Positions 1 to 18,970 of a DNA stretch of 64,000 bases are shown here, piece by piece. The notes beneath the pieces are model-generated. The model saw only the letters and a program-made list of their open reading frames with translations. It was not told where the DNA came from and ran no database searches. Both the position numbers and the translations under genes were made by a program. Source of the DNA: Patescibacteria group bacterium (lineage in GTDB: Bacteria; Patescibacteriota; Patescibacteriia; Buchananbacterales; UBA6539); the NCBI GenBank assembly GCA_028688055.1, contig JAQTYZ010000002.1:4256-68255 (forward strand), in the 5' to 3' direction. Numbering within the stretch: position 1 is the stretch's first letter; each line of letters starts with the position of its first letter.

Positions 1-10
1 AGCCGCCGCA

Positions 11-211
11 ATGATTGACCAGCTAGACCAGTTCACCGCCGGTGACTACTATGCCTACGCCGGAGGCTTGTTGGTTCTTGAGGGTCGCACCAAGGAAGCC
101 CTGCATTATTTGAGTCAGGCCGAAAGACGCCTTAACGCGATCAAGGCTCACCCCGACACTGCGCGAGTTTTCAACCTAATTGAGGATCTTCGCAAACGAC
201 TAGGAGGGTAA
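11..211 (+). CDS. hypothetical protein, 3' end; the ORF may begin upstream of the window
   Basis: ORF ends at 211 and is followed by a rho-independent terminator hairpin. No recognisable motif. Confidence 0.3.
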   Translation: MIDQLDQFTAGDYYAYAGGLLVLEGRTKEALHYLSQAERRLNAIKAHPDTARVFNLIEDLRKRLGG

Positions 212-292
212 CGATACAACCTCGAAACCCTTAGCAGAGATGCCGAAACCACCGCCATGGCGGGGCAAGCAAGTTCGGCATGACAGATAAAC

Positions 293-321
293 GGAGACGT
301 CAACGACGTCTTCTTTTTTTG
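293..321 (+). terminator. rho-independent terminator
   Basis: agacgtc-aac-gacgtct hairpin followed by tcttttttt. Confidence 0.55.
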
Positions 322-402: not shown

Positions 403-431
403 TTGACTTAACTAGACAAAACCCCTAGAAT
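403..431 (+). promoter_or_regulatory. sigma70-like promoter for the small HTH gene
   Basis: TTGACT, 17 nt spacer, TAGAAT, about 45 nt upstream of the ATG at 478. Confidence 0.45.
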
Positions 432-477
432 TTAAGTATAATTTATGGCTTAAACGACTTAATAAAAGCCAATAATA

Positions 478-672
478 ATGGCAGATTACAAGCTGCTCAC
501 AATGGAAGAGGTAGCCAGAGTCTTAGGAGTTTCTCTTAAGACTGTTTATCGTTGGATTGATGCTGGCGAATTGCCGGTAAGTCTAATCGGGGAGAGGACT
601 TACCGGATTTTTGAGCGTGACTTGATTAAGTTTGTTTATTCGCGCCAAATTAAGAAAAAAAAGCCAAAATAA
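478..672 (+). CDS. small excisionase-family helix-turn-helix DNA-binding protein
   Basis: The 64-aa protein carries TMEEVARVLGVSLKTVYRWIDAGELP, a classic HTH_17/MerR-superfamily excisionase-type HTH, and has a lysine-rich tail. Confidence 0.6.
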   Translation: MADYKLLTMEEVARVLGVSLKTVYRWIDAGELPVSLIGERTYRIFERDLIKFVYSRQIKKKKPK

Positions 673-731
673 GCGACAAAACAAAGGTCGAAAAAAAACG
701 AGAAAACCAAAAATAAATTGAGGAGGAAAAA

Positions 732-1490
732 ATGACAAAAAGTTTTAACAAAATCAGAAATATTAGCCAAAAAGCCTTGACTTTTTCGCTAAATTATGCT
801 ATCCTGATACTAGGGTATATCGGTATAGTGGTATACCTTGACGGTCTGAAGTCAGCTGCCAAATTAGGCAAACTGACCCGTCAAAACAAAAAGCAAAACA
901 AAATTACTTATCAGCTACTCGCCGGACAAGCTTTGTCTGGAGCTAGCGTGCTCAAAGCCGCTAATTTAGCTGACCAATTCAATAGTAATCTACCTTTATT
1001 TACGTTTTGCTTTTTGTCAAAACGTTTTTTTATTAAAAGGTCGAAAACTAAAAAACAAAAAATAAAAATCAACAGCAATGATAGCAGGCTACTATCGATT
1101 AAAAGACATTTTGCAGCAAATCGATCGCAACAAAACGACGTTAATTCGCTGGGAAGAAGCGGGCTTAATTCCCAAGGCTTTGCGCGACAGTCGTGGCTGG
1201 CGTTGTTATTCCAAAGAACAAGTCGACGAAATCATTCGACGCGTTCAGGATACCAACTACTTTCACGAAACGGTTGGCGATCAAATAAACTTCGAGGGAC
1301 ACGTGCTGGATTCACATCCGAATCACGCGTAAAGTCTTTGAAGTTTTTATTAATTGCAACTGCAAAATATGACTTGGTCGAAACCAAACAAAAGTTTAGT
1401 TATTGGTTAGGAAATATTTCTAGCCGATTTTCTGTTTTTACTCGACCACTGTCATTAGACAAGGGTGAAATTAATATTCAAACGGATTAA
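732..1490 (+). CDS. questionable ORF of 252 aa, low complexity and K/N/R/S rich, overlapping the better-supported HTH ORF in another frame
   Basis: Strong SD (gaggagg) before the ATG at 732 and one N-terminal hydrophobic segment. The rest looks like read-through of intergenic or alternative-frame sequence. Possibly only the first ~95 aa are real. Confidence 0.2.
1078..1332 (+). CDS. second small MerR/excisionase-like HTH protein
   Basis: [26 protein letters not shown] is an HTH motif paralogous to the 478..672 gene. Confidence 0.5.
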
Positions 1491-1497
1491 TTAAAAA

Positions 1498-4400
1498 ATG
1501 AACTGGCTGCAAACCAAAATCTATCAAGCCGCCAAGGTAACAATGTTAACCAGCGTGTTAGCGTTGGTCGCTTTTGGTTTGCAATTAGCAAAATTTGAAC
1601 CAACAATTGCCGCCACCGGCATCAACCAACAATTAAACTACCAAGGTAAGTTGATGACGGTCAGTGGCGTGCAAGTTGCTAATACTAACTACAACTTCCG
1701 GTTCCGCATCTATAATGCTTCTTCCGGTGGTACGGTCTTGTGGACGGAACGGTGGACGGCCACTTCCACTCAGATTACCACGGTCAACGGAGTGTTCTCC
1801 GCTGCCCTTGGTTCGATTAATGCCTTGAGCAATGGTTCAATTGATTGGAACTCAGACAGTTTGTACCTCCAAGTTGATTTAGACGCTGACAATAATGGGT
1901 CCTGGGAAGAAAGCTTTGCTACTCGCAAACGTTTAACCTCCACACCGTATGCGTTCAACGCTAACCAAGTTAACGGCTTTAGCGCGACTTCCACCGCGGC
2001 GGTGGCCAACAATATTCCAGTCTTTGATTCTAACCTAACCTTGAACTTGTTTAATGGGGGAGTCAGTACTACGCGCGCCACCACCACCGCTTTATACTTC
2101 GTACCCCAAACCACGGCCCCTGACAGTCAAACCGGGAAACTCTACTTTGACTCAGGCAGTAACTACTTCAAATTCTACAATGGTCTCACTTGGGCTAGTT
2201 TAGGTGGTGGTGGAGCCGCTTGGGAATTATTCAACACTGACTCTGCTTTTATTACTCCCACCTCGTCCAAACCAATTTATGTCCCTGGTGCCTCACGGCT
2301 GGAAATGATTAATGCATCGACGACGAATGTTGATACCTTAACCGTCTATGGTAATAGTATCTACAACGGATTATCAACCTTCACTGATTTACGTACCACC
2401 AACCTTAATGCCTCAACGACGGCTAACTTCAATAATCTATTTATCTACGGTCTGGGCGATTTCACCGACCTGCGTTCAACCAACTTAAACGCTTCGGGCA
2501 CTCCGACCTTCGCCAATATTATTAACTACGGTACCTATACGGGCAACGGTGGTTTATCAATCTTCTCTGATCTGCGTCCGTCAATGTTGAATGCGTCGAC
2601 GACGAATGTTGACACCTTACGAGTTTACAATTCTCTCACCGTGCCTGACAGCAGTATCGCCTGGTCAAAATTAACTGGCATACCAACGTCAACCACTGAC
2701 CAATTGCCGGAAGGCGCGACTAACAAATATTACGCTAACTCTCTCGCTCGAGCCGCGCTATCAGCTTCCAGCCCAATTAGCTATGACTCGGGTACGGGAG
2801 CATTTAGTTTCCTCTATAACACAACAAATAATTGGACAGGGTTAAATACTTTCACCGACCTGCGTTCAACCAACTTAAACGCTTCGGGCACTCCGACCTT
2901 CGCCAATATTATTAACTACGGTACCTATACGGGCAACGGTGGTTTATCAATCTTCTCTGATCTGCGTCCGTCAATGTTGAATGCGTCGACGACGAATGTT
3001 GACACCTTACGAGTTTACAATTCTCTCACCGTGCCTGACAGCAGTATCGCCTGGTCAAAATTAACTGGCATACCAACGTCAACCACTGACCAATTGCCGG
3101 AAGGCGCGACTAACAAATATTACGCTAACTCTCTCGCTCGAGCCGCGCTATCAGCTTCCAGCCCAATTAGCTATGACTCGGGTACGGGAGCATTTAGTTT
3201 CCTCTATAACACAACAAATAATTGGACAGGGTTAAATACTTTCACCGACCTGCGTTCAACCAACTTAAACGCTTCGGGCACTCCGACCTTCGCCAATATT
3301 ATTAACTACGGTACCTATACGGGCAACGGTGGTTTATCAATCTTCTCTGATCTGCGACTCGCAAACGGATTAAATGCCTCTTCAACCGCTAACTTCTTAA
3401 ATGTGACATCCTTTGGCACGGTATCATCAACCGTTGCGCTAAACACCCAAGGCACCGGTCATTTTGGTAATAACGTAACCATTGACGGCAAGGTTGGCAT
3501 CGGCGCGACATCTCCACTTGCTAACTTAGAAATATATGACGGAACCGCGAGTAATATTTTAGGATTAGCAGTGAGAAGTAGCGGTATTGCTTGGACAAGC
3601 ACTCAACTACATCTTGGTCTTTATGACGAACGAGCATTAGCCGCAGATACGGGTCCAGCCATTGGATTTATCGCTCGCTATACGGCTAGCGCCTACACTC
3701 ATATGGCGGCGATAAAAATGGGCAAAGACAATGCGACGAGCGGAGAATATGGTGGCTATCTTTCGTTTATGACCAGAGCTAATGGTGTAGGAGAAGCAGA
3801 AAGAATGAGAATAACCAGCGCCGGTAATATCGGCATTAACAACACCGCGCCTGACGCTAAGTTGCACGTGACCGGTGATGCCAAAATAACGGGCAATGCC
3901 TCGACCACTGGTTGGTTTAATATTGGTACAACCAATCCGTTGGCAACCCTTGGCACATTGATCGGTGCCGGTGATTTATTTGTCGGACGAAATGCTACTA
4001 TCACCAACAACTTAACGGTTGATGGCACTACGTTGGTAGTTCAGGCTGATACTAATCGTGTCGGGATTGGAACGGCGAGTCCTTATGCCACTTTAGATGT
4101 CCAAGATACAATCCGTGCCACTAGGGCCGGTTATGATAATTTACAATATATTCAAATGACAGGAGATGGAGCTGGGAATTATCTAGTTGCTAATTCACAA
4201 GCAACTAATGATAAAGTTTTCTATATTGATGCTAAAAGCAATACAAATCCGGCCGGGGCAAATAATCAAATTCAGTTTCGAAATGGTTATACTCTATCGA
4301 CTAAAATGACTATTGATTCTTCTGGCAATGTCGGTATCAACAATACCGCCCCCGACGCCAAACTTCACGTCACTGGTGATGCCAAAATAACAGGTAATGC

Positions 4401-7400
4401 CTCAACTACCGGCTGGTTTAATATTGGTACAACTAATCCGTTGACAACCCTTGGTGCGCTCATTGGTGCTGGTGATTTGTTTGTTGGACGTAATGCCACT
4501 GTCACCAGTAACTTAACGGTTGACGGCACTACCTTGGTGGTTCAGGCCGATACCAATTATGTCGGTATTGACACAGCGAGTCCATTATCAAAACTTCATA
4601 TTAACAATGGGGCTAGTGGCAATATTTTATCTGTTGAAAGTAATGCCAGTGCCATTGATGAATATGCTGGATTAACACTGGCCAGTAAGGACTCAGGTGG
4701 GGCGTTATGGTATGGATCAGAAATTAGAAATATTAATACCGCTGGAAACCCTAGTTTTCTAAACCCAAGATTAGGTTTTTTCACTCAAGATTACTCCACT
4801 TATCTCCCGGCCAATCGAACAGAAAAAATGTCTATTCTAGGAAATGGTAATGTTGGGATTGGGACGGTGAGTCCAGGTAATAAACTGCAAGTTGTTGGAG
4901 CGATGGACGCAACTTATCCGGATTTGGTCGGACAAATAAATATTTCTTCAAATGATTCAGCGGCAATCAATAAAGGTGGCGTTTTGTCATTCGGCGGTAA
5001 CTATACCGGGACAACCAACACATCTTGGGCTACAATCTATGGTCGCAAAGAAAACTCGACGGCAGGCGATTATGCTGGCTATTTAGGCTTTGTAACAAGA
5101 GCGGTGGGAAATACCGGAACAGAAAAAATGAGAATAACCAGTGCAGGTGCTGTCGGTATCGGCAACACCGCCCCCGACGCCAAACTTCACGTCACTGGTG
5201 ATGCCAAAATAACGGGCAATGCCTCGACCACTGGTTGGTTTAATATTGGTACAACCAATCCGTTGGCAACCCTTGGCACATTGATCGGTGCCGGTGATTT
5301 ATTTGTCGGACGAAACGCGACGGTGACGAATAGTTTTATTGTTGACGCCGGAACTTTGTTTGTTGATTCTGGTAATAACTATGTCGGCATCGGGACGACG
5401 GCACCAGATGCAGGATTAACCGTAAACGGTTCAATCGATAGTATTTTACCATCAACCAACCGTCATTATTATAACGTTGCCGATTATAACTATACCGCCG
5501 GGGCGATTGTCGGGACAACAATCATTACGCTCCCTAAATACGGATCGTCCACGATGTTGCAAATCAAAATCAGCGGTTATGACTATAGCAGTGGTCGTGG
5601 CGCCTGGGAAATTATCATTGGTGGTTATAATTATTCCACCCACGACTGGTATAACACCAGCGTTGAATATAAAGGCACACCGCCGTTTACTCAAGTCCGC
5701 TTAGCAAATAATGGTACGAATGATTTAATTTTATTAGGAACAACGGCAACCAGTTGGGCCTACCCAAAAGTGGTGGTTACTGATGTTATGACGGGGCATA
5801 GCAATCTTAATAATTGGGGGACGGGCTGGTCAATCACAAACACAGCAACTGAACCTACTCTATTTAATGTCACCACTCTGACACCTAAAATGTTTATTGA
5901 TACTGCCGGCAAGGTTGGTATTGGCAATACCGCTCCCGCCTCATTATTAACCCTCGGGACGGCCGGCACGACGGCTGGCTCATTATCGTTAGCTGGTGCC
6001 ACTTCTGGTGTTATCACTCTTGCAACGGCGGCTGCGGCTGGGACGTACACGTTAACGCTGCCAACATCGGCCGGTAGTTTAAACCAGGTGTTAACTACCA
6101 ACGGCAGTGGGACGCTCTCGTGGTCAACAGGCCCCAGTACCCAGGCCTGGCAAAAGTACACCGGACTGGCATACCCAACGGATATTATCACGCCGACCAC
6201 TACCAATGCTTCAATTTTTATTTCAGGCAACGCGACGACCACCGGCAACATCACCATTACCCAGGCCGCCAACCCGGCCGGCAACCTGGCTTTCTCAGCT
6301 GCTAATCCTGTTATCAAAGCTTCCAGCTATATCACTGTCCCTGGCGGTATGTATGTCAGTGGTGGCACGCTTTATGCCCAAAACTCACTCAAAGCAAGGG
6401 GCGGTATCGCCGATGACCAGAACACCTACCTAACGCTGGCCGGCGGCACCAGCGGCTATTCTTATTTTTCCGGTAACGTCGGCATTGGCCAGACCGCGCC
6501 AGCAGCTTGGTTGGAAATTAACGGCGGCGCCACGACTAATGACTTGTTTAAAATTGCGACTACCAGCAATTCGGCAATTGTTTTTGTGGACAAAAGCGGT
6601 AATTTTGGCATTGGTACCACCACCTTCTTTAATAGCCCGGAAAACGGCAATCCCAAACTTGTTGTTGATGGTGGCTTAACCGGCGATGGCGGTATAATGT
6701 TGAACAGTGCTCAAGGTCGTTCAGCATATTTAGAATTTGCTAATGGTGCTAAAAGTGAATGGTATATATCCTCAAGAAATACTTTGATGGCGGGCGACAA
6801 TCATCAATTAAATTTTGATACTTACGTTAATGGTGGTCCAACAAACGTTTTGAGCTTAATGCAGTCGGGCAACATCGGCTTTGGTACGACCTCCCCGATT
6901 TATAATACCGTCACTCACCTTTCGAGTAGCGCCGCTAATCCGAATGATCGCCGAGCCAACTGGACCCGTGTTGACCTGTCTGGCAGCATTAGTAGTAATA
7001 TCTCTAATTACGGCCAATACATTTATCTATCAAATACCGGAGGAGCAACCGGAGGATTAATTGCAAATTCTTATTATGGGGGCAAATCAGAAGTAATCAA
7101 TTCTGGGGCAACAACGCCAACTGATGCGTCTTGGGGTCCAGCTCTAGCCAACTACGGCTATTATGGTCACGCCCAGTCGACCGGAACGGCCAATGCCGGC
7201 AGTGGTGGTAGCAATAACCGCTCGAACTATGGTGTCTATGGTCTTGCCGACGGCAATACCAATGGTTCAACCAGTAACTACGGCGTTTACGGTGATGCTT
7301 CTACAGGTGACCTAAATTATGGCGTTTATGCCCGGACCTGGGGCGCGGCTGGTCAAACCGGCTATGGTCTTTACGCAATGGACAACGCCAGCGCCGGTAC

Positions 7401-8835
7401 TAGTTATGCTGGCTATTTCCAAGGCAGTACCGCCAGCGATTACGTCATTTATATCAATAATATCGGTACGACTCCGGGTATTCACGACGATTCCGGCGCC
7501 GAGTTGACCGCGGCCGGAGCCTGGAATGCTGCGCCATCGTGGAGTTGGTATAAAAATCAAACCGCCGATCAGCCCACCGATTATTTGGAAAAACTGAGAA
7601 ATTTACCGGTCCACGCCTGGCAATATAAAAATGAAGTTGTCGATGGGAGTAACCGATATCTAGGCGATTCAAACGTTCACGTTTCACCATTCTTAGACGA
7701 CTTTAATAGTGCCTTTAGCATTGGGCCGGTCAATTCCGTAAACTATCAGGACTGGATTGGTGTCACGATGGGCGCGGTCAAAGAACTGGATAGCAATGTG
7801 TTACAGGTTCAAGATTCATTAAAATCTCTGGAGAGCAAAATCGGTTTAGACCAAGCCATTAACAATCCAATAGTTAATACCCCGGTCATCACTGTAATTA
7901 ATAACCCGGATTCCGAAATCAACACCTTAGTGGTTAATCAAGCCGCCACCTTTAATGGTACGTTATATGTTGTCGGTGAGGCCGGCTTTATGCACAAAGT
8001 TACCTTTGCCGACGACATTATTGTGGGCGGCAAAATTTATGCTTCCGAAGATCAGGCCGGTACCGCTGTTGTTGACGCCAACGCGACCTCAACGGAAATC
8101 ATTTTTAATTCCGAGTATGAAACCGTGCCAAAAATTGTCGCGAGCGTCGTCGGTGAAGATGATGACATTTGGGTCAATTGGAAAATCATCGGCAAATCAA
8201 CCAAGGGCTTCCGAATCTTACTTCAGCAGCCAATGGCCACACCGATTAGTTTCGATTGGATTGCCTTGCCGGTTAAAGGTGGCACAGCCGCGCCGGTGAT
8301 AAATGATTTAATAACCTCATTGACGTCAGTCGGCGCCAATATTCCAGTTGAACTTTGGGCTCAAGCTGCCGACCCCGACACCAGCGATTCTGAATTATCA
8401 TATTCCTGGAAATTGTCACCGAATATTGGAAAAATTGACGGCCAGTCTGGTCTCGTTTACTGGACAATTCCCGCTGATCAAATGCCATCAGCCGATACTG
8501 ATGTGACCGTTACCGTGACGGTTTCTGACGGTTCCCATTCGGCAACCAAATCAGCAACCATTAAAATCCTGGTACCGGAAAATAATACCGATGTCGCCAA
8601 TGATCAGCCAGCAACAACCGACACTTCGCAAACCACTTCTGATCAACCGACCGAAACTGGAAATAACTCAACCACCACCAACCAGGCTACCGTTGCTAAT
8701 GGGTGTACCGATAATACCGCGACCAACTATGATCTAACCGCGACTGACGATGATGGTTCGTGCCAATATCCGCCGCAGCCAACCAATAACTCCGACGCTT
8801 CAACAACGTCGGCCTCAACCACCCCAAGCAATTAA
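1498..8835 (+). CDS. giant (2445 aa) secreted or anchored tail-fibre-like surface protein with repeats and a Peptidase_S74-like intramolecular chaperone motif
   Basis: N-terminal signal/TM segment. Many (V/I)GIG(T/N)T(A/S)P...L.V.G tail-fibre-type repeats. The motif VNYQDWIGVTMGAVKELDSNVLQVQDSLKSLESKIG resembles the chaperone-of-endosialidase (S74) domain. Ig-like segment with TVTVTVSD. S/T/N-rich C-terminal tail. Confidence 0.85.
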   Translation: MNWLQTKIYQAAKVTMLTSVLALVAFGLQLAKFEPTIAATGINQQLNYQGKLMTVSGVQVANTNYNFRFRIYNASSGGTVLWTERWTATSTQITTVNGVFSAALGSINALSNGSIDWNSDSLYLQVDLDADNNGSWEESFATRKRLTSTPYAFNANQVNGFSATSTAAVANNIPVFDSNLTLNLFNGGVSTTRATTTALYFVPQTTAPDSQTGKLYFDSGSNYFKFYNGLTWASLGGGGAAWELFNTDSAFITPTSSKPIYVPGASRLEMINASTTNVDTLTVYGNSIYNGLSTFTDLRTTNLNASTTANFNNLFIYGLGDFTDLRSTNLNASGTPTFANIINYGTYTGNGGLSIFSDLRPSMLNASTTNVDTLRVYNSLTVPDSSIAWSKLTGIPTSTTDQLPEGATNKYYANSLARAALSASSPISYDSGTGAFSFLYNTTNNWTGLNTFTDLRSTNLNASGTPTFANIINYGTYTGNGGLSIFSDLRPSMLNASTTNVDTLRVYNSLTVPDSSIAWSKLTGIPTSTTDQLPEGATNKYYANSLARAALSASSPISYDSGTGAFSFLYNTTNNWTGLNTFTDLRSTNLNASGTPTFANIINYGTYTGNGGLSIFSDLRLANGLNASSTANFLNVTSFGTVSSTVALNTQGTGHFGNNVTIDGKVGIGATSPLANLEIYDGTASNILGLAVRSSGIAWTSTQLHLGLYDERALAADTGPAIGFIARYTASAYTHMAAIKMGKDNATSGEYGGYLSFMTRANGVGEAERMRITSAGNIGINNTAPDAKLHVTGDAKITGNASTTGWFNIGTTNPLATLGTLIGAGDLFVGRNATITNNLTVDGTTLVVQADTNRVGIGTASPYATLDVQDTIRATRAGYDNLQYIQMTGDGAGNYLVANSQATNDKVFYIDAKSNTNPAGANNQIQFRNGYTLSTKMTIDSSGNVGINNTAPDAKLHVTGDAKITGNASTTGWFNIGTTNPLTTLGALIGAGDLFVGRNATVTSNLTVDGTTLVVQADTNYVGIDTASPLSKLHINNGASGNILSVESNASAIDEYAGLTLASKDSGGALWYGSEIRNINTAGNPSFLNPRLGFFTQDYSTYLPANRTEKMSILGNGNVGIGTVSPGNKLQVVGAMDATYPDLVGQINISSNDSAAINKGGVLSFGGNYTGTTNTSWATIYGRKENSTAGDYAGYLGFVTRAVGNTGTEKMRITSAGAVGIGNTAPDAKLHVTGDAKITGNASTTGWFNIGTTNPLATLGTLIGAGDLFVGRNATVTNSFIVDAGTLFVDSGNNYVGIGTTAPDAGLTVNGSIDSILPSTNRHYYNVADYNYTAGAIVGTTIITLPKYGSSTMLQIKISGYDYSSGRGAWEIIIGGYNYSTHDWYNTSVEYKGTPPFTQVRLANNGTNDLILLGTTATSWAYPKVVVTDVMTGHSNLNNWGTGWSITNTATEPTLFNVTTLTPKMFIDTAGKVGIGNTAPASLLTLGTAGTTAGSLSLAGATSGVITLATAAAAGTYTLTLPTSAGSLNQVLTTNGSGTLSWSTGPSTQAWQKYTGLAYPTDIITPTTTNASIFISGNATTTGNITITQAANPAGNLAFSAANPVIKASSYITVPGGMYVSGGTLYAQNSLKARGGIADDQNTYLTLAGGTSGYSYFSGNVGIGQTAPAAWLEINGGATTNDLFKIATTSNSAIVFVDKSGNFGIGTTTFFNSPENGNPKLVVDGGLTGDGGIMLNSAQGRSAYLEFANGAKSEWYISSRNTLMAGDNHQLNFDTYVNGGPTNVLSLMQSGNIGFGTTSPIYNTVTHLSSSAANPNDRRANWTRVDLSGSISSNISNYGQYIYLSNTGGATGGLIANSYYGGKSEVINSGATTPTDASWGPALANYGYYGHAQSTGTANAGSGGSNNRSNYGVYGLADGNTNGSTSNYGVYGDASTGDLNYGVYARTWGAAGQTGYGLYAMDNASAGTSYAGYFQGSTASDYVIYINNIGTTPGIHDDSGAELTAAGAWNAAPSWSWYKNQTADQPTDYLEKLRNLPVHAWQYKNEVVDGSNRYLGDSNVHVSPFLDDFNSAFSIGPVNSVNYQDWIGVTMGAVKELDSNVLQVQDSLKSLESKIGLDQAINNPIVNTPVITVINNPDSEINTLVVNQAATFNGTLYVVGEAGFMHKVTFADDIIVGGKIYASEDQAGTAVVDANATSTEIIFNSEYETVPKIVASVVGEDDDIWVNWKIIGKSTKGFRILLQQPMATPISFDWIALPVKGGTAAPVINDLITSLTSVGANIPVELWAQAADPDTSDSELSYSWKLSPNIGKIDGQSGLVYWTIPADQMPSADTDVTVTVTVSDGSHSATKSATIKILVPENNTDVANDQPATTDTSQTTSDQPTETGNNSTTTNQATVANGCTDNTATNYDLTATDDDGSCQYPPQPTNNSDASTTSASTTPSN
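2461..3355 (+). repeat. perfect 390-bp (130-aa) tandem repeat, ~2.3 copies, inside the giant gene
   Basis: Identical blocks start at 2461, 2851 and 3241. The third copy diverges at ~3355. The encoded unit is FTDLRSTNLNASGTPTF...NTTNNWTGLNT. Confidence 0.9.
3838..5330 (+). repeat. three dispersed near-identical ~200-bp modules inside the giant gene
   Basis: Copies at ~3838-4060, 4327-4555 and 5161-5330. Each encodes NNTAPDAKLHVTGDAKITGNASTTGWFNIGTTNPL.TLG.LIGAGDLFVGRNAT with only a few nucleotide differences. Confidence 0.85.
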
Positions 8836-8842: not shown

Positions 8843-11299
8843 ATGTTAATGTTTGTTTTCCTAAAAAAATTGTTAGCCCAAATTGAAGACCTGCCAATCA
8901 AGCCCTGGCAACTATTGGCCTGGTGGTATTTTATTACTATTATCAGAACCCTCCTTGAAGCTTTCACCGACAGTGGGGGGCATTTAAGCGGCTTCCAGCC
9001 ATTTTTTCTTCAATATCCTGCCTACTACGCCGTGGCCTTCATGGGCATAATTATTATTTTAAAATTAATTACCAATGAAAAAATAGAAAAAATCGCCAAA
9101 GTCTTTTTTCTTTTTTCTTTCTTTATTTTTATTGGCCCAACTGTTGACGCGTTGTTATCAGCCTCAAATAATATAAGCTACATCAGCGTTGACAACTGGC
9201 CACTGATATTAAAATCGTATCTCACCATTGGCCTGGGTGGTATTTTTTTCCAAGGGACCACTAGTGGTATCAAATTCGAATTAATATTTGCCCTGCTATC
9301 AATTTTTCTTTACCTGAAATTGAAAGGTGTCACAATTATAAAATCACTGCTTGGCATTAGTAGCATCTATTTTTTTATTATTTCAACTTTTTTAATCACC
9401 ACCTACATTAAATTTTTTTATCTCTATTTTGGGCTTACCTTTAATTTTACCTCCCAATTTATTGGTTTATTTTGGACCATAATAACTACCATCAATACTT
9501 TAATATTTTTTTATTTATGGGATAAGACTAAATTAAAAAACTGGTTTTATGGCCTCGACTGGTTTCGTACGACCTTGGTCTGGCTGGTGATGACGTGGGG
9601 GATCGTTATCTATTTCAACCAAAGGTTCGACCCAGCACTTTGGCAATCTGATTGGCCAGCCGTCATTCTAAAAATGCTCGCCGTGACGATGGTCGGTTTT
9701 CTCATTTGGCAAATTATTAGACTAATCAACGATTTTGTCGATTTTGACTTTGATCATTATTCACAGTCGCCCAATTTATTAAACCAACTGCCAAAATCAG
9801 ATTTAATTACCGTCCTAATATTTTATTTAATTTTCTTTTTATTTTTGGCGCTGCAAATAAATTATACTTTTTTTGTCCTGCTGTTAATCTATATCCTCAT
9901 CGGCTATTTTTACAGCTGTAAACCAATATTTTTAAAACGCCATTTTATTTCAACCGCGGTTGCTTTAAGCCTAAATTATCTCCTCGCTTTTTGGGCCGGC
10001 TATGCGGCTTTTTTTACCACCGCTGACTCCCTAAATTTAGTGCCAAGAAACATCAGCCTGCTAATATTTCTCACCTTTGTCGCCGTGATCGGTTTTAAAG
10101 ACGTCAAAGATGAATTAAGTGACAAGCAACAAGGAGTAGTCACCTTGGTCACTCGCTACGGAGTTAATTGGGCCGCCAAAATTATTAGCTTAATGATTAT
10201 TTTAGTAATTCTTTTGGGCGGCTGGCTGTGGCACAGTTGGCCCTTATTAATCTTCGCGTTAATTGCCTTCGCCGCCGCTTATTATTTGACTAACGGTTTT
10301 ACAATTTTTAAAAATAAAATTGCGTTGGCTATTACTCTAATTTTATTTTCAATTGCCGCGCCCATCGTCGTTAGTTTTAATAAACCACTTCAAGCCTCAA
10401 TTGGTGCCATCAATTTAAAAAATGACGCCGGTTGGCATCCAACGGCCAATCAAGAAGCGTGGGATATTTCAAGCCTCTTAACCGATCAAAACGGCGATCG
10501 CTACTTTTTTTCCCAGAACTACTCGCTGTTAAACGGATCAACTCTAACTTTAATTGATTTACAGACTAAACAATATTACAAAGAATATTTTCCTGATGAG
10601 GGTTTCACGGCCATTACTAAAAATATCTTAGCAATCAACCAATATATTCCGGGCTACCATGGCAGCAATGTGTTTTATGACAATAACCGCGGCCCTTATA
10701 TTTTAAAAACCTATTTTGCCGATGGTTTACTTGAATTGACTGCCAAGGAAAAATCTAATGGCAATTTAATGGCGGCCACACCTAATGGCGTACTGAGTTT
10801 AAAAAATGGGGGAATGATTAATCAGTATTCACAACCAAATTTGGTAGCCAAAGGCCGCTTAATTTTTACCGGCCAAAAAATTATTAACATTTCTGGCCCA
10901 TTTTGGTTAGAACATCGTTGGGGTAATTTTACCGCTGACTGGCGCCAATTAAATTTAATCACCATTAATCTCGACGATGAGACAAAAATAATGATTGCTT
11001 ACCTGGGTTATGACAACGGCAGCCTGGCTTACGGTGGCCTTTTAAAAAATAACGAACTACAAAATTTTAGTCAGCTAACAATCCGGGTCGATCAAGACTG
11101 GCAAAGTCCAACCACCAACCAAAAGTGGCCAATCAAATTGAATTTAGCCAATCGCAATATTAATCTCGAGCTAGAAGCCATTTTACCAAATCAAGAAGCT
11201 CCCCAAAATACTTGGTCGGGACCAATGACGGTAACAGGCGAAGTTAATGGACAGCCAGTTGCTGGTTGGGCAAATTTTAGTGAGCTACGCCCCGACTAA
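8843..11299 (+). CDS. polytopic membrane protein: UbiA-like prenyltransferase core fused to a ~300-aa C-terminal soluble domain
   Basis: More than 12 hydrophobic segments. FKDVKDELSDKQQG is an Asp-rich motif like the second UbiA motif. The C-terminal domain (WLEHRWGNF...) is possibly CrtC/AttH lipocalin-like. Confidence 0.5.
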   Translation: MLMFVFLKKLLAQIEDLPIKPWQLLAWWYFITIIRTLLEAFTDSGGHLSGFQPFFLQYPAYYAVAFMGIIIILKLITNEKIEKIAKVFFLFSFFIFIGPTVDALLSASNNISYISVDNWPLILKSYLTIGLGGIFFQGTTSGIKFELIFALLSIFLYLKLKGVTIIKSLLGISSIYFFIISTFLITTYIKFFYLYFGLTFNFTSQFIGLFWTIITTINTLIFFYLWDKTKLKNWFYGLDWFRTTLVWLVMTWGIVIYFNQRFDPALWQSDWPAVILKMLAVTMVGFLIWQIIRLINDFVDFDFDHYSQSPNLLNQLPKSDLITVLIFYLIFFLFLALQINYTFFVLLLIYILIGYFYSCKPIFLKRHFISTAVALSLNYLLAFWAGYAAFFTTADSLNLVPRNISLLIFLTFVAVIGFKDVKDELSDKQQGVVTLVTRYGVNWAAKIISLMIILVILLGGWLWHSWPLLIFALIAFAAAYYLTNGFTIFKNKIALAITLILFSIAAPIVVSFNKPLQASIGAINLKNDAGWHPTANQEAWDISSLLTDQNGDRYFFSQNYSLLNGSTLTLIDLQTKQYYKEYFPDEGFTAITKNILAINQYIPGYHGSNVFYDNNRGPYILKTYFADGLLELTAKEKSNGNLMAATPNGVLSLKNGGMINQYSQPNLVAKGRLIFTGQKIINISGPFWLEHRWGNFTADWRQLNLITINLDDETKIMIAYLGYDNGSLAYGGLLKNNELQNFSQLTIRVDQDWQSPTTNQKWPIKLNLANRNINLELEAILPNQEAPQNTWSGPMTVTGEVNGQPVAGWANFSELRPD

Positions 11300-11657: not shown

Positions 11658-12629
11658 ATGCCAGCCAAAGAACCGTTATATTTTTTTCTTCACATTCCTA
11701 AAACCGGCGGAACAACAATTAATCAAGCACTGGCCTCAACCTATAAAAATGGCGAGTTCATTTTTTTACCATCAAATATTTTAGACGAAAAAGCAAGCAG
11801 AAAATCCATTAAAAATTATTTACTAAACATTCCAGTGGCTAAAAAAAATCTAATTAAAGTGATTGCTGGTCATGATGTTTATTACGGTTTACATAATATT
11901 TTTCCCAACCGCGAACCACGCTATATTGCTTGTTTTCGCCACCCAGTTGATTTAACAATATCTAGCTACAATTATTATTTAACCATTACTAATAAAAAAG
12001 ACTGCAATCCAACAAATATTGCAAAACAACCCATTAATGATATTAAAATACTAAATTTTCAAGACGTCTTAACAAAGTATGAGGAACTCCATAATTTAAC
12101 TTTTAAATTTCTCGCTGATCGCCTGCTCGATAATAAACGTTTAAATAAACACCTAAATCTAAAGGATGTAGACTATATTAATACAAAAAATAATGATTTT
12201 ATTTTAAAAAAAATTAAAAATATATTGTCGCATTTTTATTTTTTAGGTATAACGGAAAAATCGCAAGATGATTTTTTATTTATTGCTGATAAATTTGGCA
12301 TAACTAAGTACATGCCAAAAGATAATATTTCAACAAAATTTTTTAATCTTAGCACCAATCCAACAATTAAAAATGCCATCGAACAATATAATCTCTTAGA
12401 TCAAAATTTATACGACTATGCAGTGCAAGTTAATAATAGTTATAAAAAAAATAATCAAAATTTTAATTTAAGGGTGAAAAAAATAAATAATATGTTTACT
12501 CTGGGGTTGATTATGGATATGTTTAAAATAACGCATTATCCTCAAAATATCTATCGCTTTTCTGATTGGCTCAAACAAAAATCTAACTTGTATAAAAAAA
12601 TATTAGCATACTTTAAAAATTTACATTAA
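11658..12629 (+). CDS. sulfotransferase family protein
   Basis: N-terminal FFLHIPKTGGTT is a PAPS 5'-phosphosulfate-binding-loop motif of Sulfotransfer_2/3 families. Very AT-rich gene. Confidence 0.65.
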   Translation: MPAKEPLYFFLHIPKTGGTTINQALASTYKNGEFIFLPSNILDEKASRKSIKNYLLNIPVAKKNLIKVIAGHDVYYGLHNIFPNREPRYIACFRHPVDLTISSYNYYLTITNKKDCNPTNIAKQPINDIKILNFQDVLTKYEELHNLTFKFLADRLLDNKRLNKHLNLKDVDYINTKNNDFILKKIKNILSHFYFLGITEKSQDDFLFIADKFGITKYMPKDNISTKFFNLSTNPTIKNAIEQYNLLDQNLYDYAVQVNNSYKKNNQNFNLRVKKINNMFTLGLIMDMFKITHYPQNIYRFSDWLKQKSNLYKKILAYFKNLH

Positions 12630-13336
12630 TGATTTTTGACTAGACGTAAATTATTTTTTACCTCCAATGTCATTTCTCGTATTGTTTTTATTTCAAAATT
12701 TTCTATCAGTAATAATTCATATATTTTTTTCAAATACTCACTTGGCCAAGGACAATATCCTTCATTATCGAGGCCATGTGCTCTCAAAATTAACCAACTA
12801 TTAGCTGGCAGCTGGCTTATTTTTTTCAAGGCCTTTTCTATTGTTAATCTGCCCTCAAATGGGTCAAAAGAAATCAGTTCTAAAAGGTCAATTTTTTCTA
12901 ATGAATTATAAATATATTTACCATCACATAGTCTGATAGAGTCGTAGGGTGGATTGTCTGGAGATTTAATGCCGTAAGGCATAGCCAATGAATAAGGACC
13001 AGGATGAAACTGTTGGATATATTTTAACGATTCAATATAACCGTCTGGGCCATCACTGCTTGGCCCAGCATGGCAGACAGTATGAGAACTTATTTCATGA
13101 CCTAGATTAGACAGCTTCTTCCATTGCTCAAAGTCTCCGTGATCTAAGCCGATATTACATTTGTCATTAATCTTTATAGGATTTGGTTTTAGCCATCCAG
13201 TCACAATATAAAATATTGCTTTATTGGGATAGATAATGTCGTTTACTTTATTGGCGCTATTTATAAGGCCATCATCAAAGGTAAATGACACGTAACGATT
13301 AATTATCTTTTTGGGTTTGTAAAAAAAATTAAACAT
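12626..13336 (-). CDS. polysaccharide deacetylase (CE4/NodB-homology domain)
   Basis: TFDDG and HTVCH motifs. Confidence 0.65.
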   Translation of the reverse strand: MFNFFYKPKKIINRYVSFTFDDGLINSANKVNDIIYPNKAIFYIVTGWLKPNPIKINDKCNIGLDHGDFEQWKKLSNLGHEISSHTVCHAGPSSDGPDGYIESLKYIQQFHPGPYSLAMPYGIKSPDNPPYDSIRLCDGKYIYNSLEKIDLLELISFDPFEGRLTIEKALKKISQLPANSWLILRAHGLDNEGYCPWPSEYLKKIYELLLIENFEIKTIREMTLEVKNNLRLVKNH

Positions 13337-13342
13337 AAGTTA

Positions 13343-14353
13343 TTACAGGATATTTTGCAAGTATTTTAATTGTCTATAAAGTTTAATTTTTGTTCCTACC
13401 AGTAATGAGATGTCACCTTTCAGGAAAAAGATCAATTCTAATGGTAAAAAAAACAGTTCTTTCAAGATAAATACCATATCATAAAATGGCAAATCAACGC
13501 CTAGGTTTCTTTTTAGGGTACATTCAGACAAATAAGATAAATTATACATTTTTACGGATGATTTAATGCTTTTTTGATTATAGCTTCCATTAAATTCTCG
13601 ATGGGTATCTGGAACTCGGTGGTGTTTAATTGATACTTGATCTATGAAGTATGGGAAGTGCGGCCAGAGAGTTTCAATTTGCCGAATCAGATCAGTATCA
13701 TCGTGAGAAAAAATAATTTGCTGGTTGAAGTGGACGTAGTCAAAAATCTTTTTTTTGATTGACAAATTCCCGGCCGCTATTGTTCCTGCAATTGGCTGAT
13801 TAGTGACTAAGTTTTGTTTAAGAACTGTGTCATATATTTGCCCCTGACCTAAAAAGAAACTGCCATTAGCATATTTATGATAAAGGCGACTTAGCCATTC
13901 AGGATCAACTTCACAATCATCATCAATAAAAATTAAGAGTTCTCCGGTAGCCATTTTGATTCCTTTATTCCGGCCAGCGGATATGCTTATTATTTTCTCC
14001 TGAAAAACTTTTAATAATTTATTATTTTGGGCATATTGTTGTAAATATATATAAGTTCCATCATTTGAATTATTATCAATAATAATTATTTCATAAGGTA
14101 AGGTATCAAATTGAAGATGTTCTAGGCTGGCCAAAGCATATTTTTTAAGGGCATTCAGACGATTTCTAGTGGTGATTATAATTGAAATCTTATTAATTTG
14201 ATCTCCAATAATTTCAGTGGTGGTTTTTTTTATTATATCGACGGGTAATGTTTTTTTATTATATTTTTTATTCAATCCCTCATATATTTTAAATGGAAAA
14301 TAATAAATATAATTCTTTATTTTTTTTGGCATCAATTGCAACAGATACTTCAT
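13343..14353 (-). CDS. family 2 glycosyltransferase
   Basis: ISIIITTRNR...IIIDNNSNDGT...IFIDDDC (GT-A fold with DxD). Confidence 0.75.
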   Translation of the reverse strand: MKYLLQLMPKKIKNYIYYFPFKIYEGLNKKYNKKTLPVDIIKKTTTEIIGDQINKISIIITTRNRLNALKKYALASLEHLQFDTLPYEIIIIDNNSNDGTYIYLQQYAQNNKLLKVFQEKIISISAGRNKGIKMATGELLIFIDDDCEVDPEWLSRLYHKYANGSFFLGQGQIYDTVLKQNLVTNQPIAGTIAAGNLSIKKKIFDYVHFNQQIIFSHDDTDLIRQIETLWPHFPYFIDQVSIKHHRVPDTHREFNGSYNQKSIKSSVKMYNLSYLSECTLKRNLGVDLPFYDMVFILKELFFLPLELIFFLKGDISLLVGTKIKLYRQLKYLQNIL

Positions 14354-15369: not shown

Positions 15370-15371
15370 AG

Positions 15372-16106: not shown

Positions 16107-16113
16107 ATGTTTC

Positions 16114-16863: not shown

Positions 16864-16866
16864 ATT

Positions 16867-18969: not shown

Positions 18970-18970
18970 T
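18668..18970 (-). repeat. 303-bp perfect direct repeat, copy A (5' end of the GT8 paralog)
   Basis: Identical to 19668..19970 at an offset of exactly 1000 bp. Confidence 0.9.

What the first reader, a model, noticed from the sequence alone, without database searches (positions are those of the whole stretch)
478..8835. Giant tail-fibre-like surface protein with an S74-type chaperone motif, preceded by two excisionase-family HTH genes
The 2445-aa ORF combines an N-terminal signal/anchor, dozens of phage tail-fibre-type (V/I)GIGTxxP...L.V.G repeats, a segment matching the intramolecular chaperone (Peptidase_S74, chaperone-of-endosialidase) consensus, a further Ig-like domain and an S/T/N-rich tail. 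In phage fibres the S74 module is strictly C-terminal and is auto-cleaved. Here about 365 aa follow it, which is atypical. Two tiny HTH_17/excisionase-type DNA-binding genes sit immediately upstream. This could be a domesticated or prophage-derived fibre used as a host-attachment adhesin, fitting an episymbiotic lifestyle, or part of a cryptic mobile element.
Basis: partly seen in the sequence, partly recalled or inferred. Interest (0 to 1): 0.75.

Follow-up and report, generated by a model that had tools for sequence, protein, structure and literature searches.

The report
Giant CPR surface fibre, internal S74
A 2445-residue gene in an ultrasmall (Patescibacteria) bacterium encodes a phage-tail-fibre-like surface fibre related to the prey-recognition fibres of Bdellovibrio, and its self-cleaving assembly domain sits inside the protein, ahead of a conserved lectin-like module, rather than at the end.

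Summary
It has a signal peptide, 11 fibre motifs (not "dozens"), an S74-type domain, a PKD/Ig domain and an S/T/N-rich tail.

Pfam alone does not support S74 (12-13 bits against a cut-off of 22). Homology is established through intermediates: phage proteins that pass PF13884 match the segment at 2e-11 and 4e-8, and a profile of the variant alone recovers canonical S74 proteins. The Ser-x4-Lys dyad (S2014/K2019) is kept, as it is in all 22 internal S74 copies examined in relatives.

- An H-type-lectin-like domain follows the S74.
- The N-terminal domain is distantly homologous to the Bdellovibrio MAT fibre N-domain.
- The layout N-domain, fibre, internal S74, lectin-like domain recurs in about 20 complete genes across Patescibacteria.

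An HTH_17 gene lies directly upstream of the fibre gene in 24 related loci, so it is a conserved partner and probably a regulator, not an excisionase. No integrase, tRNA or phage genes were found, and the locus is chromosomal, about 33 kb from dnaA.

Verdict: a new architectural variant of a known kind. A host-attachment role is inferred, not shown.

The parts
403..442 (+). Promoter-like sites upstream of the first HTH gene. The upstream gene is followed by a hairpin plus T-run at 293-313.
   Evidence: TAGACA-18-TATAAT (11 of 12) and TTGACT-17-TAGAAT (10 of 12). These are consensus matches only.
478..672 (+). hth1: a 64-aa HTH_17 (excisionase-family fold) DNA-binding protein with a basic tail. 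It is a conserved upstream partner of the fibre gene.
   Evidence: PF12728 1e-14; TIGR01764 2.2e-12; BldC-like 1.4e-6; homologues lie within 1.1 kb upstream on the same strand in 24 related loci.
732..1076 (+). Small ORF with a strong Shine-Dalgarno sequence and one predicted membrane helix. Its end is uncertain, because the frame stays open to 1490 and overlaps hth2.
   Evidence: conserved in L010 (43% identity, 8e-16) and L018 (4e-6).
1078..1332 (+). hth2: an 84-aa MerR-type HTH protein.
   Evidence: MerR_1 23 bits, cut-off 21.6. (phrog_20793 2e-8); homologues at 3e-32 and 6e-31 in the same position in L018 and L010.
1498..8835 (+). Giant fibre precursor gene, 2445 aa.
1498..1614 (+). Signal peptide or N-terminal anchor, aa 1-39. 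It has a hydrophobic core at aa 14-31 and an AxA-like end (IAA|TG).
   Evidence: Read directly from the sequence. The layout is shared by 20 relatives. No signal-peptide predictor was run.
1609..2010 (+). Conserved N-terminal beta-rich domain, aa 38-171. It is distantly related to the Bdellovibrio MAT N-domain and is the presumed cell-proximal base.
   Evidence: NF053851 8e-9, 35.5 bits, cut-off 60; 17 of 20 relatives match; 70 loci in Patescibacteria.
2460..3356 (+). Perfect 390-nt tandem repeat, 2.3 copies, inside the N-proximal shaft (aa 322-620).
   Evidence: 100% identity.
3445..6897 (+). Fibre shaft, about aa 650-1800. It carries 11 VGIGTxxP-type motifs and three 100-aa repeat units.
   Evidence: phrog_9942 2.4e-32; phrog_18345 3.7e-28; Bdellovibrio MAT structures 8ojn 8.6e-6, 8ond 4.8e-4.
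7006..7422 (+). Six (N/G/S)Y(G/A)xY repeats, aa 1837-1975. This is the presumed distal tip of the mature fibre, just before the cleavage site.
   Evidence: The function is inferred.
7513..7839 (+). Divergent S74 (intramolecular chaperone, auto-processing) domain, aa 2006-2114. The predicted nucleophile Ser2014 is at nt 7537-7539 and the predicted base Lys2019 at nt 7552-7554.
7897..8286 (+). Conserved neck (aa 2134-2185) plus an H-type-lectin-like six-stranded beta-sandwich (aa 2186-2257).
8296..8568 (+). PKD/Ig-like domain, aa 2267-2357.
8572..8832 (+). S/T/N-rich tail with one Cys-pair motif, GCTDxxAxNY...DDGSCxY (aa 2402-2424, nt 8701-8769). No C-terminal membrane helix or sorting signal is present.
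   Evidence: The same motif occurs up to about 10 times in relatives.

Best explanation
The gene encodes the precursor of a long trimeric surface fibre. It belongs to a family that is widespread in Patescibacteria (CPR) and distantly related to the 'mosaic adhesive trimer' (MAT) fibres of Bdellovibrio and to phage tail fibres.

Proposed mechanism:
1. The protein is exported by an N-terminal signal peptide.
2. The conserved N-domain (aa 38-171) stays at the cell surface.
3. About 1800 residues of beta-helical shaft project outward. By scaling from Bd3182 this would be of the order of 100 nm (inference).
4. The divergent S74 domain (aa 2006-2114) acts as an intramolecular trimerisation chaperone.
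5. Its conserved Ser2014-Lys2019 dyad then cuts the chain.

One precursor therefore yields two products: the cell-bound fibre, ending at about aa 2013, and a 432-residue C-terminal fragment. That fragment contains the S74 domain, a neck, an H-type-lectin-like domain, a PKD domain, a Cys motif and the S/T-rich tail. Because it is the best-conserved part of the family after the N-domain, it probably has a role of its own. It could be a trimeric glycan-binding unit that caps the tip or is released.

The small HTH_17 gene, and here also a MerR-type one, upstream is a dedicated DNA-binding partner of the fibre operon. It is most likely a transcription regulator, not an excisionase.

Shown here: the architecture, the homologies, the conservation of the dyad and the gene pairing.
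Inferred: trimer formation, cleavage, surface display, glycan binding and a role in attachment to a host cell.
For: - Fibre. PHROG tail-fibre families match at 2.4e-32 and 3.7e-28. Bdellovibrio MAT structures 8ojn and 8ond match by sequence. The 11 motifs compare with 0.013 expected by chance.
- N-domain. Bdello_MAT_N matches at 8e-9, and in 17 of 20 relatives.
- S74, via phage intermediates. tblastn of aa 2006-2116 hits the C-terminal ends of N4-like phage virion proteins at 2e-11 and 4e-8. Those proteins score 34 and 36.5 bits on PF13884 and carry SSK(D/E)(Y/F)K where this protein has SWSWYK.
- S74, via profile search. A profile built only from the variant type finds 4957 proteins at E<=1e-3. 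Three of the members tested pass PF13884.
- Dyad. Ser and Lys at +5 are kept in all 22 internal CPR S74 copies, while the residues between them vary.
- Architecture. About 20 complete ORFs combine the N-domain, an internal S74 and a lectin-like domain, with 146-389 aa after the S74. None ends at the S74.
- Shared C-terminal module. The same module follows the variant S74, the canonical S74 (PF13884 1e-10 to 3e-16), a weak Peptidase_G2-like match or a coiled coil in different relatives.
- HTH pairing. Of 28 hth1 homologues in 1.0 Mb of related loci, 24 lie within 1.1 kb upstream on the same strand.
- Chromosomal context.
Against: - Direct Pfam and NCBIfam scores are below curated cut-offs for S74, MAT_N and H_lectin.
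- hhalign of variant against canonical S74 gives only E 0.042. The variant profile finds nothing among PDB sequences.
- The aspartate of the canonical SDxxxK motif is replaced by tryptophan, so activity is unproven.
- No experiment or expression data exist, and no trimer model could be run.
- Sugar-binding residues of the lectin-like domain were not examined.
- Only 24 of 66 loci with upstream sequence carry the HTH.
Confidence: 0.6

Rival explanations
1. The S74-like segment has lost protease activity and serves only as an in-line trimerisation module. The protein stays in one piece, and the lectin-like and PKD domains form the true distal, receptor-binding tip of the fibre.
For: - The lectin-like and PKD domains are typical adhesive modules, and they lie at the end far from the N-terminal base.
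- The canonical SD is replaced by SW.
- The Pfam score is below its cut-off.
- In the MAT family, tips are adhesive domains (PMC10769870).
Against: - Ser and Lys at +5 are kept in 22 of 22 internal copies, although the residues between them change freely. That pattern argues for selection on catalysis.
- Relatives with fully canonical SDxRxK motifs and strong PF13884 scores carry the same downstream module.
- Phage proteins of the nearest S74 subtype also lack the Asp (SSKDYK) and are annotated as auto-processing.
Confidence: 0.22
2. The whole C-terminal 432 residues are a disposable, enlarged assembly module. The obligate-trimer lectin fold nucleates trimerisation, as a foldon does. The S74 then zips up the shaft and cuts the module off, and the fragment has no later function.
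For: - H-type lectins are trimers (own knowledge).
- The module always lies just after an assembly element: S74, a G2-like match or a coiled coil.
- More distant proteins end in the same FDWW(I/V) beta domain right after S74 and a coiled coil.
Against: PKD domains, up to about 10 Cys-pair repeats and long S/T-rich tails are kept downstream in relatives. These are not needed to nucleate a trimer and look like binding or spacer modules.
Confidence: 0.13
3. The locus is a remnant of a prophage or another mobile element. The HTH_17 gene is an excisionase and the giant gene is a captured tail fibre.
For: - The HTH_17 gene matches the TIGR01764 'excisionase family' model and PHROG excisionase families.
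- The shaft and the S74 domain are homologous to phage tail-fibre parts.
- GC content changes sharply at about position 300.
Against: - No integrase, tRNA or phage structural genes occur in 64 kb.
- Neighbours of the relatives are housekeeping genes.
- The HTH-fibre pair is conserved across many species, and the same HTH type also precedes an unrelated surface-protein operon.
- No relatives were found in IMG/VR.
- The N-domain occurs in 70 Patescibacteria genomes.
Confidence: 0.04
4. The fibre is real but does not serve host attachment. It could be a structural envelope or S-layer-associated fibre, a spacer, a phage decoy, or a mediator of cell-cell or substrate adhesion.
For: - Nothing here shows a binding partner.
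- Many CPR lineages with unknown lifestyles carry the family.
- A glycosylation island lies nearby.
Against: - The nearest characterised relatives, the Bdellovibrio MAT fibres, act in recognising other bacteria (PMC10769870).
- A mosaic shaft and tip, with a second copy in the same genome, is typical of receptor-binding proteins.
Confidence: 0.2

Closest known systems
Bdellovibrio bacteriovorus MAT (mosaic adhesive trimer) fibres, S74 group, e.g. Bd3182 (PMC10769870; PDB 8ojn, 8ond; NCBIfam NF053851)
   Same: - A signal peptide is followed by a conserved beta-rich N-domain.
- A long shaft carries VG.G..P...L-type loops.
- There is an S74 chaperone/protease with a Ser...Lys motif.
- The gene is chromosomal, in a bacterium that lives on other bacteria.
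- The genome holds several mosaic copies.
   Different: - MAT proteins are about 1000 aa and end at the S74 domain or at an adhesive tip. This protein has 2445 aa, and the S74 is followed by 332 more residues (lectin-like, PKD, Cys motif, tail).
- The N-domain match is partial (profile positions 9-75 of 162) and below NCBI's cut-off.
- The host phylum differs, with a Gram-positive-like envelope (own knowledge).
- The paired HTH_17 gene is not described for MAT.
Phage tail fibres and tailspikes with a C-terminal intramolecular chaperone (Peptidase_S74 / PF13884): K1F endosialidase, T5 pb1, S16 fibre. The nearest subtype is in N4-like phage virion proteins (Serratia phage Parlo gp78, Klebsiella phage ZX1).
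   Same: - The S74 domain is homologous (2e-11 and 4e-8 to the phage proteins).
- The Ser-x4-Lys spacing is the same.
- The position next to the nucleophile is non-Asp in the nearest subtype (SSKDYK against SWSWYK).
- The shaft repeats are tail-fibre-like.
   Different: - In the phage proteins the domain ends the protein, with 6-13 aa after it. Here it is internal.
- There is no virion context.
- The N-terminus is a secretion signal plus a cell-surface domain, not a virion attachment domain.
Eukaryotic MyRF (myelin regulatory factor) ICA domain (PDB 7dc3)
   Same: It is the known case of an S74-type domain placed inside a protein, where self-cleavage separates two functional parts of a trimer. 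This is from the MAT paper and own knowledge. PDB 7dc3 is hit by the canonical S74 profile of the relatives.
   Different: MyRF is a membrane-bound transcription factor with unrelated flanking domains. No direct similarity to the window protein was detected.
H-type lectins (Helix pomatia agglutinin 2ccv, discoidin I 2w94; PF09458)
   Different: The Pfam score is below threshold: there is no hit for this protein and 15-22 bits for relatives. The sugar-binding residues were not checked. The bacterial context after an S74 domain appears in database names only (NCBI names P0002 an 'H-type lectin domain-containing protein').
Small excisionase-fold (HTH_17/MerR-like) regulators such as Streptomyces BldC, TorI and Xis
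   Same: It is a 64-aa single-domain winged HTH. It matches TIGR01764 (2e-12) and, more weakly, the BldC family model (1.4e-6). BldC is a precedent for this fold acting as a transcription regulator without a recombinase (own knowledge).
   Different: It scores far below the BldC family cut-off (28 against 77 bits). Its conserved position directly upstream of a giant fibre gene has no described parallel that I found.

Membership tests
Peptidase_S74 / intramolecular chaperone auto-processing domain | Match to the family model (PF13884) above its gathering score | tested here: not met
   The whole protein gives no hit. Segments give 12.3-13.3 bits, E 0.11-0.21, covering profile positions 10-36 of 58, against a cut-off of 22.
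Peptidase_S74 / intramolecular chaperone auto-processing domain | Homology to bona fide members through intermediate sequences or profiles | tested here: met
   - tblastn hits phage proteins at 2e-11 and 4e-8. Those proteins score 34 and 36.5 bits on PF13884.
- The variant-only profile retrieves P0152, P0165 and P0256, which pass PF13884.
- phrog_8003 matches at its C-terminus at 2.8e-7.
- Direct hhalign against the relatives' canonical domains is weak (E 0.042).
Peptidase_S74 / intramolecular chaperone auto-processing domain | Catalytic Ser and Lys five residues apart (SDxxxK) at the start of the domain | tested here: met
   S2014-W-S-W-Y-K2019 aligns with SD.R.K of canonical relatives and SSKDYK of phage proteins. 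S and K are kept in 22 of 22 internal CPR copies. The Asp at +1 is not kept.
Peptidase_S74 / intramolecular chaperone auto-processing domain | Characteristic fold: short helices, a small sheet and a long C-terminal helix in an intertwined trimer | tested here: inconclusive
Peptidase_S74 / intramolecular chaperone auto-processing domain | Position at the C-terminal end of the protein | tested here: not met
   There are 332 aa after the domain. Among the 150 best matches, 108 end within 30 aa of the domain and 24 have more than 200 aa after it.
Peptidase_S74 / intramolecular chaperone auto-processing domain | Autoproteolytic release of the domain after trimer assembly | not testable with these tools
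   This needs expression of the wild type and the S2014A/K2019A mutants.
MAT (mosaic adhesive trimer) fibre superfamily | Conserved beta-rich N-terminal domain of about 130 aa directly after the signal peptide | tested here: inconclusive
   NF053851 Bdello_MAT_N matches at E 8e-9 and 35.5 bits, but the cut-off is 60 and only profile positions 9-75 of 162 are covered. It also matches 17 of 20 relatives, best 2.4e-12. This is distant homology, not membership of the curated subfamily.
MAT (mosaic adhesive trimer) fibre superfamily | Trimeric beta-helical shaft with recurring capping-loop motif (V-G-G/N-x-x-x-P-x-x-x-L) | tested here: met
   This holds at the sequence level only. There are 11 motif copies. 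phmmer hits solved MAT fragments 8ojn (8.6e-6) and 8ond/Bd2133 (4.8e-4), aligning on these motifs. The trimeric state was not tested.
MAT (mosaic adhesive trimer) fibre superfamily | Protein terminates in an S74 domain or in a single adhesive tip domain | tested here: not met
   Here the S74 is internal and is followed by lectin-like and PKD domains and a tail.
H-type lectin (PF09458) | Match to the family model above threshold | tested here: not met
   There is no hit for the window protein. Relatives score 21.9, 16.9 and 15.3 bits against a cut-off of 24.
H-type lectin (PF09458) | Six-stranded beta-sandwich fold like Helix pomatia agglutinin | tested here: met
H-type lectin (PF09458) | Sugar-binding residues at the trimer interface | not tested
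   No residue-level comparison was made.
Excisionase (Xis) of an integrative element | HTH_17 / TIGR01764 DNA-binding domain | tested here: met
   PF12728 matches at 1e-14 and TIGR01764 at 2.2e-12.
Excisionase (Xis) of an integrative element | Adjacent integrase or recombinase, with att repeats or a tRNA target | tested here: not met
   - There is no tRNA in 64 kb.
- There is no recombinase among the ORFs scanned up to about 35 kb downstream, nor in the 1.5 kb of extra upstream sequence from L001.
- No long direct or inverted repeats flank the locus.
- Recurrent neighbours in 70 related loci are housekeeping or surface-protein genes.
- Sequence more than 2 kb upstream of the window was not available.

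The most novel reading that the evidence does not exclude
Patescibacteria share with predatory Bdellovibrio an ancient family of phage-like recognition fibres, but have rebuilt it as a two-product precursor. Self-cleavage at the internal S74 would leave a cell-anchored fibre of about 100 nm. It would also free, or leave as a removable cap, a trimeric H-type lectin-PKD unit that binds host or self glycans. The whole cassette would be switched by a dedicated excisionase-fold regulator encoded directly upstream. This would be a main, so far undescribed, host-recognition system of ultrasmall episymbionts.
Probability: 0.3. Interest if true: 0.8.

Novelty: new variant of a known kind. Interest (0 to 1): 0.6.

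Why it matters
[quoted passage not shown] This locus gives a concrete candidate family.
- It is found in at least 70 Patescibacteria species-level genomes.
- It is homologous to the only bacterial fibres shown to take part in recognising other bacteria.
- It has defined, testable elements: Ser2014 and Lys2019, the lectin-like domain, and the paired HTH regulator.

The locus also shows that the S74 chaperone, usually treated as a terminal and disposable domain, is used routinely in this clade as an internal processing site ahead of conserved domains. In bacteria this arrangement has so far been visible only in database names. I found no paper describing it in four of the literature searches.

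Tried and rejected
- Pfam on the whole protein and on eight overlapping segments gave nothing significant for S74.
- A profile of the five variant-type S74 sequences against PDB sequences gave only chance hits.
- hhalign of variant against canonical S74 was weak (E 0.042).
- Foldseek against the PDB with the multi-domain model was swamped by tandem Ig and cadherin hits.
- Exact-sequence look-ups of the giant protein, its UbiA neighbour and the paralogue P0113 found no contig. Only the HTH look-up gave 1.5 kb more upstream sequence (L001).
- Scans of IMG/VR with the N-domain and with the S74-lectin module found no relatives.
- Four literature searches linking CPR or Patescibacteria, or H-type lectins, with S74 or tail fibres found nothing relevant.
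- I considered and rejected a chimeric assembly at the GC step near position 300. The same junction is present in an independently assembled Logan contig.
- I also considered whether the 252-aa ORF 732..1490 is the real gene instead of hth2. The hth2 frame is much better conserved in L010 and L018 (about 1e-31) than the overlapping frame. Only the first ~115 codons of the long ORF look conserved in their own right.

Full report
**1. What is there**

The window holds a single ORF at 1498..8835 (+) of 2445 aa. It is identical to NCBI MDD2807212.1 (locus tag PHW95_01675). That record is a 'hypothetical protein' on a 201-kb contig of a 'Patescibacteria group bacterium' MAG.

Two small DNA-binding genes lie upstream.
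- hth1, at 478..672, has 64 aa. It matches PF12728 HTH_17 at 1e-14 and the TIGR01764 'excisionase family' model at 2e-12.
- hth2, at 1078..1332, has 84 aa and is MerR-type. It scores 23 bits on MerR_1 (cut-off 21.6) and 2e-8 on phrog_20793.
- Between them lies a small ORF starting at 732. It has a strong ribosome-binding site and one hydrophobic helix. Gene callers extend it to 1490 across hth2 in another frame.

A hairpin with a T-run at 293-313 and near-consensus promoter hexamers at 403-442 precede hth1.

**2. Anatomy of the giant protein**

- **aa 1-39.** A basic start, a hydrophobic core and an IAA|TG junction. Twenty relatives share this layout and a nearly invariant 'AATGINQQLNYQGK' start of the mature protein.
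- **aa 38-171.** A conserved beta-rich domain.
- **aa 322-620.** Encoded by a 390-nt tandem repeat, 2.3 copies, 100% identical.
- **aa 650-1800.** The shaft. It has 11 copies of the motif [VIF]G[IVF][GDN][TNAQ]xxP, against 0.013 in shuffles, and three 100-aa repeat units. This region matches PHROG tail-fibre families at 2.4e-32 and 3.7e-28. It also matches the solved Bdellovibrio MAT fibre fragments 8ojn (8.6e-6) and 8ond/Bd2133 (4.8e-4), aligned on exactly these motifs.
- **aa 1837-1975.** Six (N/G/S)Y(G/A)xY repeats.
- **aa 2006-2114.** The S74-like segment.
- **aa 2134-2185.** A strongly conserved 'neck' that the monomer model cannot place.
- **aa 2186-2257.** A six-stranded beta-sandwich.
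- **aa 2267-2357.** A PKD/Ig-like domain (pLDDT 87-96).
- **aa 2359-2445.** An S/T/N-rich tail with one Cys-pair motif, GCTDxxAxNY...DDGSCxY. There is no C-terminal membrane helix.

**3. Is the S74 call right?**

It is not supported by Pfam directly. The whole protein gives nothing, and segments give 12-13 bits (E 0.1-0.2) against a cut-off of 22. A profile of the five variant-type sequences finds nothing among PDB sequences. hhalign against the relatives' canonical S74 domains gives only E 0.042. The monomer structure models are too weak to decide.

Three independent sequence routes do establish homology.
- **Phage intermediates.** tblastn of aa 2006-2116 against 50,697 phage genomes hits the C-terminal ends of virion proteins of N4-like phages. 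Klebsiella phage ZX1 matches at 2e-11. Serratia phage Parlo matches at 4e-8 and is annotated 'intramolecular chaperone auto-processing domain-containing protein'. Those proteins score 34 and 36.5 bits on PF13884.
- **Profile search.** The variant-only profile, run against 1.84 billion representative proteins, finds 4957 proteins at E<=1e-3. Three of the members tested (P0152, P0165, P0256) pass PF13884 on the matched stretch.
- **Positional equivalence.** In close relatives the identical downstream module is preceded at the same place by canonical S74 domains, with PF13884 from 1.9e-10 to 3.3e-16. The profile of those domains hits the solved S74 structures 6f45, 8jov, 8hqz and MyRF 7dc3.

The catalytic pattern is in register. 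S2014-W-S-W-Y-K2019 aligns with S-D-x-R-x-K of canonical relatives and with S-S-K-D-Y-K of the phage proteins. Across 22 internal CPR copies the Ser and the Lys at +5 never change, while every residue between them does. I read this as selection on the protease dyad. Cleavage is therefore likely but not shown.

**4. What follows the S74**

It is in fact a conserved module.

The module of neck, lectin-like domain, an optional PKD domain, Cys-pair repeats and a low-complexity tail is 45-60% identical among relatives. It follows a variant S74, a canonical S74, a weak Peptidase_G2-like match or a coiled coil in different proteins. More distant proteins end in the same kind of domain (signature FDWW(I/V)) after S74 and a coiled coil.

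**5. The family and its distribution**

A scan of one genome per species with the N-domain found 70 loci. By record title they belong to Buchananbacteria, Saccharibacteria, Uhrbacteria, Moraniibacteriota, Peribacteria and unclassified Patescibacteria. Some third-party assemblies are labelled 'uncultured Gammaproteobacteria', which I did not verify.

Local HMM searches of these loci gave the following.
- About 20 complete ORFs of 790-2784 aa combine the N-domain, an internal S74 and the lectin-like domain. That domain starts 10-70 aa after the S74.
- Between 146 and 389 aa follow the S74.
- No member ends at its S74.
- Many other members have the lectin-like domain near the C-terminus without an S74 that my small profiles could detect.

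Among the 150 best matches to the variant S74 profile from all of life, 108 have the domain within 30 aa of the C-terminus and 24 have more than 200 aa after it. Internal placement is therefore unusual overall but standard in this clade.

The N-domain matches NCBIfam NF053851 'Bdello_MAT_N' at 8e-9. The score is 35.5 bits against a cut-off of 60, and only profile positions 9-75 of 162 are covered. The model also matches 17 of 20 relatives, best 2.4e-12. Together with the shaft hits to MAT structures, this makes the family a distant relative of the Bdellovibrio MAT superfamily. That superfamily was described in 2024 as surface fibres with mosaic tips that take part in prey recognition. Thirteen of its 21 members terminate in an S74 with an SDxxxK motif (PMC10769870).

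The same MAG carries at least one more copy. P0113 (PHW95_00055) has an almost identical N-domain but a different signal peptide and a different continuation.

**6. The HTH genes**

In 1.0 Mb of related loci there are 28 hth1 homologues. Of these, 24 lie within 1.1 kb upstream of the fibre gene on the same strand, in 24 of the 66 loci where upstream sequence is available. Their core (VSLKTVYRWI ... RTYR(I/V)FE.DL) is nearly invariant.

There are two subtypes. In L030 and L039 one subtype precedes a trio of secreted or surface proteins, and the other precedes the fibre gene. hth2 homologues sit in the same place in L010 and L018. In the 64-kb window, hth1 and hth2 are the only copies.

No recombinase is among the recurrent neighbours, which are rpoB/rpoC, ftsK, ndk and a metallo-beta-lactamase-fold gene. 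The gene is therefore a conserved partner of surface-protein operons. I interpret it as a small excisionase-fold transcription regulator. BldC of Streptomyces is a precedent from my own knowledge, and the BldC model matches weakly here at 1.4e-6. DNA binding and its targets remain untested.

**7. Mobile element or prophage?**

This reading is not supported.
- The window carries dnaA (41705-43066), polA, smc, a class-A PBP, dapA-like and many glycosyltransferase genes.
- There is no tRNA and there are no long flanking repeats.
- There is no integrase among the ORFs scanned up to about 35 kb downstream, nor in the extra 1.5 kb upstream from L001.
- IMG/VR holds no detectable relative of the N-domain or of the S74-lectin module.

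What lies more than 2 kb upstream of the window remains unseen.

**8. How it most likely works**

The shown steps are the domain order, the homologies, the conserved dyad and the conserved gene pair. Every step below is inferred.
1. The protein is exported by the Sec pathway.
2. The N-domain holds the fibre at the cell surface, as proposed for MAT.
3. The S74 domain nucleates and checks trimer folding of the shaft from its C-terminal end.
4. The Ser2014-Lys2019 dyad cuts the chain.
5. The cell keeps a fibre of about 1970 residues. Scaled from Bd3182 in PMC10769870 (about 550 A for about 760 residues), its length is of the order of 100 nm. Its tip is the YGxY-repeat region.
6. The 432-residue fragment forms a trimeric lectin-like and PKD unit. 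It either stays as a cap on the tip or is released.

The main rivals are these.
- The S74 no longer cuts, and the lectin and PKD domains are the true tip (0.22).
- The C-terminal part is only an enlarged, disposable assembly module (0.13).
- The fibre serves something other than host attachment (0.20).
- The locus is a mobile-element remnant (0.04).

**9. Novelty and verdict**

The kinds of parts are all known: phage-type fibre, S74 chaperone, MAT-like N-domain, H-type lectin, PKD and an Xis-fold HTH. Three things appear not to have been described in the searchable literature.
- The family is widely present in Patescibacteria.
- The S74 is routinely internal and followed by a conserved lectin-like module.
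- A small HTH_17 gene is fixed directly upstream.

I rate the finding a new variant of a known kind, with interest 0.6. It is a good lead for the open question of how ultrasmall episymbionts recognise hosts. It rests on sequence inference alone.

Noticed in passing
window 2460-3356: A 390-nt tandem repeat, 2.3 copies at 100% identity, lies inside the giant gene (aa 322-620). It could be a very recent duplication, a length-variable region, or a collapsed or expanded assembly.
   Followed up: partly
window 732-1490 (overlapping 1078-1332): A small ORF with a strong Shine-Dalgarno sequence and a membrane helix is conserved over its first ~115 codons in L010 and L018. Its frame stays open across the MerR-type gene, so annotation pipelines call a 252-aa protein and miss hth2. 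A hairpin with a T-run at 1002-1025 lies inside it.
   Followed up: partly
window 1-300; L001 899-1780: The gene upstream of the locus (293 aa, no Pfam match) has about 55% GC and abuts a 36% GC region. The same junction is present in an independent Logan assembly.
   Followed up: partly
window 12000-20000: This is a low-GC island (29-32%, against 40-49% elsewhere). It carries glycosyltransferases (GT2, GT8), a methyltransferase, an AMP-binding fragment and a polysaccharide deacetylase, and looks like a surface-glycan locus close to the fibre gene.
   Followed up: no
window 8843-11299: An 818-aa fusion of a UbiA prenyltransferase with two lipocalin-like domains starts 8 nt after the giant gene's stop codon and is probably co-transcribed. 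It is not conserved next to the fibre gene in relatives.
   Followed up: partly
window 41705-43066 and ~44000: dnaA is present and the GC skew changes sign nearby, so the window spans the likely replication origin. The fibre gene lies about 33 kb from dnaA.
   Followed up: no
L017 4387-9222; L030 4483-9400; L039 4559-9337 (19-30 related loci): A conserved trio of secreted proteins lies upstream of the fibre gene in many relatives. The first has about 250 aa, the second about 330 aa with a C-terminal membrane helix, and the third about 1050-1090 aa with CarboxypepD_reg and fn3 matches. The trio is itself preceded by an HTH_17 gene in L030 and L039. It is absent from the window. From memory it resembles Gram-positive WxL/DUF916 surface clusters, which was not tested.
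   Followed up: partly
P0113 (PHW95_00055, another contig of the same MAG): A second fibre-type gene has an N-domain almost identical to the window protein's (one difference in about 128 aa), but a different signal peptide and a different continuation. This suggests recent exchange of the N-domain between paralogues.
   Followed up: partly
P0156 (4928 aa), P0157 (4164 aa), P0164 (3409 aa), P0150 (1701 aa): Representative proteins from the large library carry two or three S74-like domains each. They may be polyproteins that cut themselves into several fibres.
   Followed up: no
window 8701-8769; P0001, P0004, P0005 C-termini: The Cys-pair motif GC(T/M/I)DxxAxN(Y/F)xxxAxxDDGSCxY occurs once here and up to about 10 times in tandem in relatives. 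No specific family model matched it. The only hit on such a protein, PsaN on P0001, lies in its repeat region and looks spurious.
   Followed up: no
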